NCBI RefSeq assembly: GCF_003334765.1
Contig: NZ_QOWT01000018.1
Source of the DNA: Escherichia coli
GTDB lineage: Bacteria; Pseudomonadota; Gammaproteobacteria; Enterobacterales; Enterobacteriaceae
DNA: 64,000 nt
Strand: one strand, 5' to 3'
In this document: positions 3,001 to 9,000 of the stretch, in pieces
Layout of the letters: each line of letters starts with the position of its first letter
Numbering within the stretch: the first letter of the stretch is position 1
Position numbers: made by a program

Positions 3001-6000
3001 GGCCCTAAGCCGCCGGAATATTTACAGATTTTATAGCTGTCGAGCAGTTGATATTGCTCGCCCATTTTGACGTAGAGATCGAGCGTACGTTCTTCCTTGA
3101 AGATCTGGATGTAGACAGGGGATCCCATCAACTGCTGCTTATACTCTTTGCTCACAGGCGTGGTAGAGCTACTGCTGCCCAGCAAACCGGCAAATGAAAC
3201 GCACGGGATCAACAACATCGCAAGAATTAATGCGATTTTACGCATACTGCTTATTCCTTGATAAAACGGTTACACACGCCAGGACGGCAAAATGGATCCC
3301 AAATCGGAATAGTCTGGATTTGGAAGGCTCACATTATCACCAAAAGAGTTTTACGCAAGCCTGTCGGCGCAGGGTTTACAAATTTCATCGGAAGCGGGCT
3401 TTACCCAAAGAGCGCCGCGTGAGTTCCAGTTCTCTCAAATCGTAAAAGTTTATCGGTAAGTTTGTAAATCAGGATCCAGTCCGGTTCGACATGAGCATCG
3501 CGATAACCTTTCCATGAACCTTGCAGCGGGTGGTCTTTATAAACAGCTGGAAGCGGTAAAGTATTATTGATAAGAAGCGTCATAAGATATTTCAATTTAT
3601 TCATATCCTTATGACGCTTTTGTGCAAGTTTTACATCCTTTGAATATTGTCCCGAGTATTCAATATCCCTTTGAATCATATTTAAATTCCTAATTTATCA
3701 AATAAATCATCGGCGTCTTTGGCCTTATGAACATCAATGCCAGCTTCGCTGTTTTTGATTGATTGAATGGTTAATTGATTAGGCTCGCGTAAATCAAACG
3801 GCAATGCCTTTTCACGCGCGACCTTTGTGAGGGTTATGCGAACCAGGTCAGAGATGGTCAGCCCCATCCCGGCCAGTACGTCCGCTGCCTGATTCTTCAG
3901 ATCTTCATCGATTCGGGCGCGAACAAACGCGTTAGCAGCCATTGGGGTATCTCCTGTGCTGTATATTTATTCAGCTTGAATTGTAGCTCAAATGAGCAAC
4001 AGCGACAATCCATGAGTAATTTAATAAACGGATGTTTTTACATAATTAACTGAAATATATATGTTAATTTTATAATAATGGTTTATTAAGTTTGTTCAGA
4101 AACGATCCGGGATACACTGCAACATTAAAGCATGACCAGCCATTATTGAGTATGTCCTTGCCGTCGATTCCATCCTTTGTATTGTCGGGATTACTGTTGA
4201 TTTGTTTGCCGTTTTCTTCATTTGCCAGCGCCACCACATCACATATCTCTTTCAGCTACGCCGCCCGCCAGCGGATGCAAAACCGTGCGCGTTTATTAAA
4301 ACAGTACCAAACTCATCTGAAAAAGCAGGCCAGCTATATTGTGGAAGGCAATGCCGAAAGCAAAAGGGCGCTACGCCAGCACAACCGGGAGCAGATAAAA
4401 CAGCATCCAGAATGGTTTCCTGCTCCGCTCAAGGCGAGTGACAGACGCTGGCAGGCGCTGGCGGAAAACAACCACTTTTTAAGCAGCGACCATCTGCATA
4501 ACATTACCGAAGTGGCGATTCACCGCCTGGAGCAGCAGCTTGGCAAGCCTTACGTCTGGGGCGGTACGCGGCCTGATAAAGGCTTTGACTGTAGCGGGTT
4601 GGTTTTTTATGCCTACAACAAGATCCTTGAGGCTAAGCTCCCGCGCACGGCCAATGAGATGTACCACTATCGCCGGGCAACGATTGTGGCGAACAACGAC
4701 CTGCGCCGGGGAGATTTGCTGTTTTTCCATATCCACAGCCGCGAGATAGCCGATCATATGGGCGTGTATTTGGGCGATGGGCAATTTATCGAGTCGCCAC
4801 GTACCGGCGAAACCATTCGGATAAGCCGATTAGCCGAACCTTTCTGGCAGGACCATTTTTTGGGCGCGCGCAGGATTTTGACGGAAGAGACGATTTTGTA
4901 GGACGGATAAGGCGTTTACGCCGCATCCGGCAGTTGTACGCAGGTGCCTGATGCGACGCTGGCGCGTCTTATCATGCCTACGAGCCCGCGAATATTTGCG
5001 AGCCGCTTTCCCGATATAAAACAACCTCATTGCCAACCTTTCCTTTTCTTCTTACCGTTGAGAAAAAGGAGTCGCCATGTCTGAATATCGTCGTTATTAC
5101 ATCAAGGGGGGAACATGGTTTTTCACGGTGAATTTACGAAATCGTCGAAGCCAACTTTTGACCACCCAGTACCAGATGCTCCGTCACGCCATTATTAAAG
5201 TTAAGCGAGACAGGCCTTTTGAAATCAACGCCTGGGTCGTTTTGCCAGAGCATATGCACTGTATCTGGACATTACCTGAAGGCGATGATGATTTTTCCTC
5301 GCGCTGGCGGGAAATTAAAAAGCAATTTACCCATGCTTGTGGATTGAAAAATATCTGGCAACCACGTTTTTGGGAGCACGCCATCCGCAATACCAAAGAT
5401 TATAGGCATCATGTTGATTATATTTATATAAATCCAGTAAAGCATGGTTGGGTAAAGCAAGTGAGTGATTGGCCATTCTCAACGTTCCATCGCGATGTCG
5501 CGCGAGGGTTATATCCCATCGATTGGGCGGGGGACGTAACGGATTTTAGTGCCGGGGAGCGTATCATTTCATAATTGTGCGCAGATGCCTGATGCGACGC
5601 TGGCGCGTCTTATCATGCCTACAAACTTGTGCCGGATCGGTAGGCCGGATAAGGCGTTTATGCCGCATCCGGCAGTTATGCGCAGATGCCTGATGCGACG
5701 CTGGCGCGTCTTATCATGCCTACAAACTTGTGCCTGAACGGTAGGACGGATAAGGCGTTCACGCCGCATCCGGCAGTTGTGCACCAATGCTGGATACTTA
5801 CATCAACGCCCCCATAATCTTCAACTCCAGCTCATCCGGCACTTCGTTATACGACAGCACATGCAGCCCCGGCGCAAACAACCTTGCATAACGCGCCAGC
5901 AAAGGGCGCAGCTGCGGTGGCACCAGCAGCACCGGGTCTTTCCCCGCCGCTTTCATCTGCTCTTTCACCTGTGGCATCGTACTCTGGAACTGGTTGAGCA

Positions 6001-9000
6001 TATTCGGATCGACCGGCACGCTGTCGAGCATCACTTTCCCGCCCTGTTGCGCCTGATTCACCACGTTGGTCAGCAGATTTTCCAGCTCATTATTCAGCGT
6101 ATACACCGTCAGCTCCTGCTTGCGAACGAACGGATGGGTAATGCTGCGCCGCAATGCCAGGCGCACATCGGCCGCCAGCAGAATATGATCTTTCGTCACC
6201 GTGCTACTGGCGACCAGCACGGTGGCGATGGTGACGATATCGCGCAGGGAAACGCCTTCGGTCAGCAGCGCCCGGTACACTTTCAGCAACTGGCTGTAAT
6301 TGAGCGCCGCGCTCAAATCTTCCGCCAGACGCGGTGCCGTCGACGATAAACGGTTATGCAACTGCGTAATATCATCATAGTTAAACAAATCAGGAATATA
6401 GCTGCGCACAATCTTATTTACATGGGTAGCGATCACGCTGGCGCTGTCGATCACCTGATACCCCATATTCAGCGCCTTCGCTTTCTGCGCCGCCTGGATC
6501 CAGGTGACCGGCATCCCGTACGCCGGGTCGTTCCCCTGCACGCCGTCAATCTCGCCGTAGGTTTCGCTGGAGGGCAGGGCCATCAGTTTATCCGCCGGAA
6601 TATCCGCTTCATCAGCCTTTATGCCGTTGATGAAAATGGCGTACTGACTGGGCTTAAGGCGGAAGTTTTCCCGAATGCGGATCTCCGGCAGCAGCACGCC
6701 GTTGCCGTCAGAAATCACCTGCCGCACGCCGCGAATCCGCTGGGTGAGCGGGTTACCCTGTGCTTTGTCCACCAGCGCCACCAGTTTGTAACCGAGGCTT
6801 AAACTGATAGGCTCGATCAGCGGAATGGTTTCCCAACTGACCTGCTGCTCGCTGGTTTCGGTGATGGTGCGGGTCAGCGTTTCGAGGCTTTTCTCTTCCG
6901 CCTCCGCCGCCAGCGGCTGTTTGCTCATCCGCCAGCCGGTAAAACCAAGCAGGGCGCTGAACAGCAAAAACGGCAGGTGCGGCATTCCCGGTACCACCGC
7001 CAGCACGAACATAATCCCGGTGGCGGTGTAGAGCACCGACGGGCTTGCCAGCAGCTGGTTACGCACGTCATGGGCGATATCGCCGTTGTCGCTGACGCGG
7101 GTGACGATAATCGCCGCCGCGGTGGAGAGCAGCAGGGAAGGGATCTGCGCCACCAGGCCGTCGCCGATGGTCATCAGCACATACTGCTGGAAGGCAGCAT
7201 CGGCGCTCAGGTTGTATTTGAAGATCCCGATACAGACGCCGCCGATCAGGTTGATCGCCAGAATCATCATCCCGGCGATGGCGTCCCCGCGCACAAACTT
7301 CGATGCCCCGTCCATCGCGCCGTAGAAATCGGCCTCGCTGGCAACATCTTTACGCCGGGTTTGCGCCTGCGCCTGGTTGATCAATCCGGCGTTAAGATCG
7401 GCGTCAATCGCCATCTGTTTGCCGGGCATCGCGTCTAAGGTAAAGCGGGCAGAAACCTCGGAAATACGCTCGGCCCCTTTGGTGACGACAATAAAGTTGA
7501 TTGTCAACAGCGTCAGTAAATCCGAGCGTGAAAGCATTATCGCCGCGCTGCACGGGCAGTCGATTTTTAACGGTGGTGGGCTGTCGCCGTTAAATAAAAT
7601 CAGCCCGTCTCATCCGCCAAAACCTGCCACCGTGGCGGTGCCGGAAGAGACGGAGAAAAAAGCGCGTGATGTGAATGAGAAAACGGCGCTGCTGAAGAAG
7701 AAATCCGCCACCGAGCTTGGTGAGCTGGCAACCAGTATCAACACCATTGCCCGTGATGCGCATATGGAAGCGAATCTGGAGATGGAGATTGTTCCCCAGG
7801 GATTACGCGTGCTGATTAAAGACGACCAGAACCGCAATATGTTTGAACGCGGCAGCGCGAAGATTATGCCGTTCTTTAAAACGCTGCTGGTGGAGCTCGC
7901 GCCAGTGTTCGACTCGCTCGATAATAAAATTATTATTACCGGGCATACCGATGCGATGGCCTACAAAAACAATATCTACAACAACTGGAACCTTTCGGGT
8001 GACCGCGCGCTTTCGGCTCGTCGGGTGCTGGAAGAGGCCGGAATGCCGGAAGATAAAGTGATGCAGGTAAGCGCAATGGCGGACCAGATGCTGCTGGATT
8101 CCAAAAATCCGCAAAGCGCGGGCAACCGGCGCATTGAGATTATGGTGCTGACCAAAAGTGCGTCCGATACGCTGTATCAATACTTTGGTCAGCATGGGGA
8201 TAAAGTGGTGCAGCCGCTGGTGCAAAAGCTGGATAAGCAGCAGGTGCTTTCGCAGCGAACGCGTTAAATGCTGAATCTTTACGCATTTCTCAAACCCTGA
8301 AATCACTGTATACTTTACCAGTGTTGAGAGGTGAGCAATGCGTAAAATCATTCATGTGGATATGGACTGCTTTTTCGCCGCAGTGGAGATGCGCGACAAT
8401 CCCGCCCTGCGCGATATCCCTATTGCTATTGGCGGCAGCCGCGAACGTCGGGGGGTGATCAGCACCGCCAATTATCCCGCGCGTAAATTTGGCGTACGTA
8501 GCGCTATGCCGACAGGGATGGCGCTCAAATTATGCCCACATCTCACCTTGCTTCCGGGGCGCTTTGACGCCTACAAAGAAGCCTCAAATCATATCCGTGA
8601 AATCTTCTCGCGCTACACCTCGCGCATTGAACCGTTGTCACTGGATGAGGCTTATCTCGATGTCACCGATAGCGTCCATTGCCACGGTTCTGCGACCCTC
8701 ATCGCCCAGGAAATCCGCCAGACAATCTTCAACGAGCTGCAACTGACGGCGTCTGCGGGCGTGGCACCAGTAAAGTTTCTCGCCAAAATCGCCTCCGACA
8801 TGAATAAACCCAACGGCCAGTTTGTGATTACGCCGGCAGAAGTTCCGGCATTTTTACAAACCTTACCGCTGGCAAAAATCCCCGGCGTCGGCAAAGTCTC
8901 AGCGGCAAAACTGGAAGCGATGGGGCTGCGGACCTGCGGTGATGTACAAAAGTGTGATCTGGTGATGCTGCTTAAACGCTTTGGCAAATTTGGCCGCATT

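What the first reader, a model, noticed from the sequence alone, without database searches (positions are those of the whole stretch)
5798..8267. Flag-2 lateral flagellar cluster deletion scar
A 5'-truncated flhA-like gene on the minus strand abuts an N-terminally truncated motB/lafU-like gene on the plus strand, and the two open frames overlap around 7500..7537. This is what remains when the tens-of-kb Flag-2 cluster between them is deleted. Neither remnant has its own start region or membrane-anchoring N-terminus.
Basis: partly seen in the sequence, partly recalled or inferred. Interest (0 to 1): 0.45.

Follow-up and report, generated by a model that had tools for sequence, protein, structure and literature searches.

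The report
Flag-2 flagellar cluster deletion scar
This is the known leftover in E. coli K-12 of a deleted second flagellar gene cluster (the lfhA'/lafU' pseudogene pair), but the identical cut point turns up in many other bacterial genera, which a single chance deletion does not explain.

Summary
Window 5798..8267 holds a 3' fragment of the Flag-2 flhA gene (lfhA, codons 131-697, minus strand) joined to a 3' fragment of lafU (motB-like, codons 53-307, plus strand). The join is a 3-nt microhomology, GAT, at 7499-7501. Compared with Flag-2-positive E. coli, 35.0-38.1 kb is missing. The window matches E. coli K-12 (1 mismatch in 9,601 nt). This pair is the published fhiA/mbhA = lfhA/lafU pseudogene pair, so the finding is already known.

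The same junction is present in 4,086 of 5,426 complete E. coli genomes.
- **Scar alleles are not a clade.** They interleave with alleles from intact loci: K-12 vs strain B2C differs at 2/1704 nt, and ST131 scar vs intact strains at 0 nt.
- **The remnants have not decayed as one old pseudogene pair would.** dN/dS among scar alleles is 0.03-0.04.
- **The join falls at the same codons in other genera.** These are E. albertii, Citrobacter, Kluyvera, Atlantibacter, Cedecea-like and unnamed Enterobacterales, each with arms native to its own genus.

So the junction either recurs through a directed precise deletion or is a very old presence/absence polymorphism. I could not identify a mechanism.

The parts
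5798..7501 (-). lfhA' (formerly fhiA): the 3' remnant of Flag-2 flhA, codons I131-M697 plus stop. It has lost residues 1-130.
   Evidence: It differs at 2/1704 nt from full-length flhA of strain B2C.
7499..7501 (.). Deletion junction. GAT is present once here and at both ends of the missing segment in intact loci. The flhA side reads ..AAAGTTGAT|GATCATCAG. The lafU side reads ..GCTGTGGAT|TGTCAACAG.
   Evidence: The same 121-nt junction occurs in 4,086 of 5,426 E. coli genomes.
7499..8267 (+). lafU' (formerly mbhA): the 3' remnant of the motB-like stator gene, codons I53-R307 plus stop. It has lost residues 1-52, which include the transmembrane helix and the FADF aspartate.
7502..7537 (-). Spurious 12-codon N-terminal extension (MLSRSDLLTLLT) of the flhA' frame, read from antisense lafU sequence up to a chance ATG.
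   Evidence: The ATG is not conserved in scars of other genera.
7377..7498 (+). Spurious upstream extension of the lafU' frame through antisense flhA sequence. It includes the GTG at 7482 that RefSeq uses as the lafU start (786-nt CDS).
   Evidence: K-12 locus L001 coordinates plus 1897 give window coordinates.
5077..5574 (+). rayT, the left flanking gene. REP-type repeats fill 5575..5797 up to the flhA' stop.
8338..9393 (+). dinB, the right flanking gene. It is the same neighbour of lafU as in intact loci.

Best explanation
**What is shown.** The interval is the empty-site form of the Flag-2 (lateral-type) flagellar locus. Everything between codon 131 of lfhA and codon 53 of lafU is missing: 35-38 kb and about 40 genes.
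- Both fragments are the 3' ends of the last genes of two outward-facing operons. The deletion removed the rest of both operons, and with them their upstream promoters.
- LafU' has no transmembrane segment.
- FlhA' lacks its first three-and-a-half membrane segments.
- The two fragments therefore do nothing as flagellar parts, and the ORF overlap at the join is an artefact of open frames.
- This is the known K-12 lfhA'/lafU' (fhiA/mbhA) pseudogene pair.

**What is inferred about origin.** The junction is not the product of one chance deletion followed by vertical descent and neutral decay.
- Scar alleles interleave with intact alleles within E. coli.
- Scar alleles carry the purifying-selection signature of working genes.
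- The same codon-to-codon join, with arms native to each genus, occurs in at least eight divergent enterobacterial taxa.

I slightly favour a recurrent, directed precise deletion between the two sites, by an unidentified mechanism (about 0.4). The alternative is a very old scar/intact polymorphism whose arms are kept alike by homologous recombination within each species (about 0.35).
For: **Identity as the scar:**. Literature.

**Not one old event.**
- The flhA' arm of the window differs from intact B2C at 2/1704 nt but from seven other scar strains at 78-101 nt.
- ST131 scar strain OZ040015 differs from intact EC958 at 0/1704 and 0/768 nt in the arms. Across the whole right flank the difference is 0/7097 nt.
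- The same scar haplotype is in SE15 and in O25b:H4-ST131 strains.
- The ST131 interior allele is found only at >=99% (411 genomes) or <=97.2%. It is therefore not a recent import from a sampled lineage.
- dN/dS among scar alleles is 0.030 (flhA') and 0.043 (lafU'). There are no stops or frameshifts in 8 of 8 scar strains.

**Same junction across genera**.

**Scar arm compared with the intact gene of the same genus:**
- 566/567 aa in the H16N7-like taxon.
- 564/567 aa in Atlantibacter (16/1704 nt).
- 98-99% in Cedecea.
- Only 69-82% between genera.

**Microhomology is unremarkable.** The flhA and lafU genes share 67 exact direct repeats of at least 8 nt and 916 18-mer pairs at least as similar as the pair actually used.
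Against: **Against a directed mechanism:**
- No recombinase or transposase is annotated inside the three intact loci examined.
- rayT is adjacent in K-12 but absent from this position in Nissle, O104:H4 and 7_33_46A.
- The retained lafU-side sequence is not conserved between distant taxa (ATTGTCAAC vs ATTATGGGG). A recognition site is therefore hard to define.

**Data that do not discriminate:**
- Within E. coli, every pattern can also be produced by homologous recombination between scar and intact strains.
- I could not read Ren et al. 2005, which may already discuss the identical end points.
Confidence: 0.97

Rival explanations
1. One chance microhomology deletion in an E. coli ancestor, inherited vertically, with the two remnants decaying neutrally ever since. 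This is the naive form of the first reader's interpretation.
For: The junction is identical in 4,086 genomes across phylogroups. Flag-2 is reported as all-or-none, with no intermediate forms (PMC5422975). Some lineages do carry decayed remnants: E. albertii and the truncated E. coli clusters P0059, P0111 and P0113.
Against: Scar alleles differ by about 5% from each other yet by 0-2 nt from intact alleles. dN/dS among them is 0.03-0.04, not about 1. The same junction sits in other genera inside native arms.
Confidence: 0.04
2. One very old deletion, kept as a balanced presence/absence polymorphism. Scar and intact alleles coexist in each species. They interconvert, and their arms are kept alike, by homologous recombination that can run right up to the heterology boundary.
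For: It needs no special mechanism. It explains the identical junction despite divergent flanks. It explains polymorphisms shared between scar and intact classes within 100 nt of the join. It also explains scar arms being nearly identical to conspecific intact arms. ST131 shows both states within one clone.
Against: Both alleles would have to survive every speciation event from the common ancestor of taxa that are now only 69-75% identical in FlhA. In ST131 the switch left no imported SNPs in 7.1 kb plus 1.7 kb of arms, and the interior allele has no close relative in other lineages.
Confidence: 0.35
3. The two truncated genes are still functional, and the junction is preserved by selection on their products.
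For: Both remnants are intact ORFs in 8 of 8 sampled E. coli scar strains and in Citrobacter, Kluyvera, Atlantibacter and Cedecea-like taxa. dN/dS is low. The P0096/P0110 clade has scars but no close intact relative in the database.
Against: The deletion removed everything upstream in both operons, so the fragments have no promoter of their own (operon layout). The start codon of the flhA' ORF is not conserved across taxa. LafU' has no export or anchor segment. Decayed copies are common in E. coli and present in E. albertii. Scar alleles interleave with intact ones.
Confidence: 0.05
4. Not a scar at all: these are naturally short FlhA-like and MotB-like genes with full-length homologues of the same size.
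For: Proteins of 579 aa that match end to end exist, for example P0060 and P0061 from Atlantibacter.
Against: The N-terminal 12 residues of those proteins are antisense lafU. They sit next to a divergent truncated lafU, so they are the same scar. A full 697-aa FlhA exists in the same genus (P0071).
Confidence: 0.01

Closest known systems
E. coli K-12 lfhA'/lafU' (fhiA/mbhA) pseudogene pair, the Flag-2 deletion remnant (Ren et al. 2005, J Bacteriol 187:1430, as cited in PMC6993521 and PMC3032704)
   Same: It is the same locus, the same neighbours (yafL-rayT and dinB-yafNOP) and the same junction. The window is 99.99% identical to K-12 ER2796 over 9.6 kb.
   Different: Nothing differs. This is that feature.
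lfhA/lafU pseudogene pairs reported in 531 of 4,028 Enterobacterales genomes (De Maayer et al. 2020, PMC6993521)
   Same: The paper reports en bloc loss between partial lfhA and lafU reading frames in Escherichia, Citrobacter and other taxa.
   Different: The passages I read attribute the loss to direct repeats and recombination. They do not state that the join is at the same codons in every genus, or that scar arms match conspecific intact genes.
ETT2 attrition in E. coli: a segment between two small direct repeats that is 'often deleted' (PMC5422975)
   Same: It is a large secretion-system cluster repeatedly lost between short direct repeats.
   Different: ETT2 shows many intermediate attrition forms. 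Flag-2 is all-or-none, with one junction.
Integrase-mediated excision of genomic islands, and developmentally excised elements (skin, nifD). From my own knowledge; not tested here.
   Same: They show precise, repeatable removal of tens of kb, leaving a defined junction.
   Different: Those elements carry a recombinase and att repeats of about 15 bp or more, and they interrupt or flank genes. Here no recombinase is annotated, the shared core is 2-3 nt, and the element ends are the 5' parts of two of its own structural genes.

Membership tests
Flag-2 lfhA'/lafU' deletion scar | A 3' fragment of Flag-2 flhA, divergent from and abutting a 3' fragment of lafU | tested here: met
Flag-2 lfhA'/lafU' deletion scar | A full Flag-2 cluster occupies the same chromosomal site in other strains, collinear with both fragments | tested here: met
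   35.0-38.1 kb is missing.
Flag-2 lfhA'/lafU' deletion scar | Junction identical to that of E. coli K-12 | tested here: met
   (MG1655, 100% over 121 nt).
FlhA / FHIPEP export-gate protein (TIGR01398) | Full-length match above the curated cutoff | tested here: not met
   score 597 against a cutoff of 772. Profile positions 1-113 are absent.
LafU, MotB-type stator protein (NF005273) | N-terminal transmembrane helix with the conserved aspartate, plus an OmpA-like C-terminal domain | tested here: not met
   The OmpA-like part is present and scores above cutoff (476.6 vs 383). Residues 1-52, which hold WKVAFADFTLAMMALFMTLW, are absent.
Recombinase-driven excisable island | A recombinase or integrase gene in or beside the element | tested here: not met
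   None is annotated in three intact loci. rayT is adjacent only in some strains. This rests on annotation only; I ran no profile search of the hypothetical proteins.
Recombinase-driven excisable island | Direct att repeats of about 10 bp or more at both ends | tested here: not met
   Only GAT (or AT) is shared exactly, with 12 of 18 nt matching around it. There are 916 equally good 18-mer pairs between the two genes.
Recombinase-driven excisable island | Excision observed, as a circular product or an empty site arising in culture | not testable with these tools
   This needs PCR or deep sequencing of Flag-2-positive cultures.

The most novel reading that the evidence does not exclude
The Flag-2 cluster carries a conserved, directed precise-deletion point. 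The segment between the Ile-131 codon of lfhA and the Ile-53 codon of lafU is removed again and again, independently, in Escherichia, Citrobacter, Kluyvera, Atlantibacter, Cedecea and other Enterobacterales. The mechanism does not depend on long repeats or on an annotated recombinase. Most 'scars' would then be young, recurrent events rather than one ancestral accident.
Probability: 0.4. Interest if true: 0.7.

Novelty: already known. Interest (0 to 1): 0.4.

Why it matters
The scar itself is textbook K-12 annotation and matters only as correct bookkeeping: two pseudogenes, not two genes. RefSeq still calls lafU' a 261-aa CDS that starts at a GTG inside antisense flhA sequence.

The wider pattern is the useful part. 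One junction appears in three quarters of E. coli genomes and, codon for codon, in many other genera, always inside native and largely undecayed arms. There are two possible meanings:
- **A repeatable precise excision.** A 35-kb motility and antigen cluster would be removed by an unknown route.
- **A very long-lived on/off polymorphism.** It would be maintained by recombination.

Either would change how Flag-2 'insertions' and 'deletions' are scored in clone histories such as ST131. Either is directly testable in Flag-2-positive strains.

Tried and rejected
**Literature**
- Ren et al. 2005 is not held in the library, so its exact statements on the end points are unknown to me.
- The main text of Ben Zakour et al. 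2016 does not mention Flag-2. The 'insertion in subclade B2' statement comes second-hand from PMC5369007.

**Microhomology as the cause: rejected.** Many longer direct repeats exist between the two genes.

**Motif comparisons by eye, not by any tool**
- XerCD/dif gave 7/11 and 6/11 arm matches, with unrelated central regions.
- I also compared Hin/Gin hix and Tn3 res half-sites.
- None was convincing, and all were dropped.

**Repeats at the ends of the missing segment**
- The segment ends form an imperfect inverted repeat. Sense flhA TTTATCATCCTGATGATCATCAAC against sense lafU TTTATGACGCTGTGGATTGTCAAC matches at 17/24.
- The 5-nt inverted repeat GTTGA..TCAAC in the scar is not conserved in other genera.
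- I treat both as by-products of two hydrophobic coding segments.

**Other**
- The promoter/terminator scan gave only weak consensus hits and carries no weight.
- An apparent failure of locus files to reach the script machine was a misreading on my part. Each file holds several loci.
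Full report
**1. What is in the window**

ORF listing gives two ORFs: a minus-strand ORF at 5798..7537 (579 aa) and a plus-strand ORF at 7377..8267 (296 aa).

Against NCBIfam:
- The minus ORF matches FlhA (TIGR01398) over profile positions 114-677 of 678, E 3.8e-179. Its score of 597 is below the curated 772.
- The plus ORF matches LafU (NF005273) over positions 41-297 of 297, E 3.1e-143.

The surrounding 9.6 kb is 99.99% identical to E. coli K-12 ER2796. In that genome RefSeq annotates 'flagellar biosynthesis protein FlhA, incomplete, missing N-terminus' next to 'lafU'. The flanks are yafL-rayT on one side and dinB-yafNOP on the other.

**2. The breakpoint**

Strain B2C carries a complete Flag-2 cluster at this site, with about 40 flagellar genes between flhA and lafU. 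Alignment of the window to both ends of that cluster gives:
- flhA side: ..AAAGTTGAT|GATCATCAG..
- lafU side: ..GCTGTGGAT|TGTCAACAG..
- window: ..AAAGTTGATTGTCAACAG..

The join is therefore the GAT at 7499-7501. The missing DNA is 35,322 bp relative to B2C, 38,138 bp relative to EC958 and 35,011 bp relative to 7_33_46A.

In protein terms:
- FlhA keeps I131-M697. It loses three hydrophobic segments and most of a fourth.
- LafU keeps I53-R307. It loses WKVAFADFTLAMMALFMTLW, which is its only membrane segment and holds the stator aspartate.

Both fragments are the 3' ends of the last genes of outward-facing operons (gene order). Everything upstream of them in those operons, promoters included, has gone.

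- The flhA frame stays open for 12 codons of antisense lafU, up to a chance ATG at 7537.
- The lafU frame stays open for 41 codons of antisense flhA, back to 7377.
- RefSeq's lafU start, GTG at 7482, lies in that antisense stretch.

**3. Known status**

[quoted passage not shown] It attributes the deletion to direct repeats, citing Ren et al. 2005. It reports lfhA/lafU pseudogene pairs in 531 of 4,028 Enterobacterales genomes.

The finding is therefore correct and already known. I could not read Ren et al. 2005.

**4. Frequency in E. coli**

- The 121-nt junction sequence is present at at least 80% coverage in 4,086 of 5,426 complete genomes.
- Interior Flag-2 sequence is present in 1,292 genomes.
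- Scar carriers include K-12, O157:H7, O104:H4 and Nissle 1917.

**5. The scar alleles are not a clade and have not decayed**

I compared eight scar strains and three intact strains (alignment; analysis).

Differences over the retained 1,704 nt of flhA:
- The window differs from intact strain B2C at 2 positions, both private to B2C.
- The window differs from the other seven scar strains at 78-101 positions.

Scar strain OZ040015 is identical to intact ST131 strain EC958:
- over the flhA arm (0/1704);
- over the lafU arm (0/768);
- over the whole 7,097-nt right flank.

The same scar haplotype is in SE15 and in O25b:H4-ST131 strains. The ST131 interior allele has no relative between 97.2% and 99% identity in any other genome.

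All eight scar strains keep both frames open. dN/dS values:

| Comparison | flhA' | lafU' |
|---|---|---|
| Among scar alleles | 0.030 | 0.043 |
| Among intact alleles | 0.040 | 0.066 |

The mean dS for flhA' among scar alleles is about 0.22. The differences between scar alleles were therefore laid down in working genes.

Polymorphisms within 100 nt of the join on both sides are shared between the scar and intact classes.

Remnants are not protected everywhere:
- E. albertii has a frameshifted flhA' and a shortened lafU'.
- Large clusters of truncated E. coli sequences exist (P0059, P0111, P0113).

**6. The same join in other genera**

A scan of one genome per species with the LafU remnant found the scar geometry in four genomes: the E. 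coli representative, E. albertii, Citrobacter sp. MGH106 and Kluyvera ascorbata. The join is at the same nucleotide in all four, and the arms are typical of each genus.

A protein search with the 579-aa ORF found further truncated FlhA ORFs. Their N-terminal extension is antisense lafU, fused exactly before INF(I/V)VVTKG. Their contigs show a divergent truncated OmpA-domain gene next door.

Junctions read in window orientation:

| Junction | Taxa |
|---|---|
| GTTGAT\|TGT | Escherichia, Citrobacter, Kluyvera |
| GTTGAT\|CGT | H16N7-like taxon |
| GTTAAT\|CGT | Atlantibacter |
| GTTAAT\|TCT | unnamed taxon, L036 |
| GTTGAT\|TAT | unnamed taxon, L042 |
| GTTAAT\|TAT | Cedecea-like, L043 and L044 |

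In every case the FlhA Ile-131 codon is fused to the LafU Ile-53-equivalent codon. By inference, the crossover lies in the dinucleotide AT.

Scar arm compared with the intact FlhA of the same genus:
- 566/567 aa in the H16N7-like taxon.
- 564/567 aa in Atlantibacter, which is 16/1704 nt.
- 98-99% in Cedecea.
- Between genera, identity is only 69-82%.

The Cedecea scar and the Cedecea intact locus share the same downstream neighbours.

**7. What this implies**

Spread of one E. coli scar into other genera by homologous recombination is excluded, because the arms are native right up to the join.

Microhomology does not single out this pair. The two genes share 67 exact direct repeats of at least 8 nt, two of 11 nt, and 916 18-mer pairs at least as similar as the pair used.

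Two readings remain:
- **(a) A directed, recurrent precise deletion.** The mechanism is unknown.
- **(b) A very old scar/intact polymorphism.** Its arms would be homogenised by recombination within each species.

Evidence bearing on the choice:
- For (a): the ST131 switch left no imported SNPs, and (b) would require both alleles to survive many speciations.
- Against (a): no recombinase is annotated in the cluster. rayT is not always adjacent. The retained lafU flank is not conserved in distant taxa.

I put (a) at about 0.4 and (b) at about 0.35. The remainder goes to mixed or unrecognised processes.

A functional role for the truncated genes is unlikely, for four reasons:
- They have no promoter of their own.
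- The flhA' start codon is not conserved.
- LafU' has no anchor.
- Decayed copies are common.

**8. Verdict**

The added value here has three parts:
- the exact breakpoint;
- a correction: the remnants are not one old decaying relic;
- the codon-exact recurrence of the junction across genera, which I did not find stated in the papers I could read and which can be tested experimentally.

Noticed in passing
window 10903..11756: A second deletion scar lies 2.6 kb downstream. An rtcB 5' fragment (10903..11125) is joined to a prfH 3' fragment (11117..11756), with about 1.0 kb missing relative to EC958, which has intact rtcB-prfH. The two matches overlap by 9 nt at the join. RefSeq marks both fragments as incomplete in K-12.
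   Followed up: partly
window 4930..5076 and 5575..5797: REP-type repeats flank rayT on both sides. A unit that translates as MPDATLARLIMPT occurs three times, at 4944, 5549 and 5686. It fills the gap between rayT and the flhA' stop codon.
   Followed up: no
window 5077..5574 and 9445..10139; loci L004, L008, L011, L013: The flanks of the locus vary between strains. rayT is absent from this position in Nissle 1917 and is replaced by hicAB in O104:H4 and 7_33_46A. It carries an internal stop in O157:H7 TX 376-2. yafN-yafO are absent in Nissle, O104:H4, EC958 and 7_33_46A, where dinB runs straight into yafP.
   Followed up: no
window 5798..9393 compared with loci L003-L013: Synonymous divergence among E. 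coli strains is high across this region. Mean dS is about 0.22 for flhA', 0.15 for lafU' and 0.15 for dinB. Relationships between strains change from gene to gene; for example, the window is nearly identical to B2C in flhA but 2% different in lafU and dinB. This indicates a strongly mosaic neighbourhood.
   Followed up: partly
search result: Seventeen matches to the junction query lie on records labelled as plasmids, and ten genomes have no match at all. About 30 genomes keep only one half of the junction (for example EN-1077 and A30), which points to other, rarer rearrangements of the locus.
   Followed up: no
window 7482..8267: RefSeq annotates lafU' as an ordinary 261-aa CDS (WP_000207552.1) that starts at a GTG inside antisense flhA sequence. 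Its first six residues (VTTIKL) are not LafU. The neighbouring flhA' is marked as a pseudogene.
   Followed up: yes
locus L002/L010 (strain B2C), record positions 4164727..4165656: The otherwise complete Flag-2 cluster of B2C carries a lysine-N-methylase gene with an internal stop. Cargo genes between the glycosyltransferase and fliJ differ between B2C and 7_33_46A on one hand and EC958 on the other, which explains the 35 vs 38 kb sizes.
   Followed up: no
loci L042, L043, L044 versus the window: An NlpC/P60 (yafL-like) peptidase gene lies next to the scar in many taxa, but on different sides. It is beside flhA' in E. coli, Atlantibacter and the H16N7-like taxon, and beside lafU' in the Cedecea-like and L042 taxa.
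   Followed up: no
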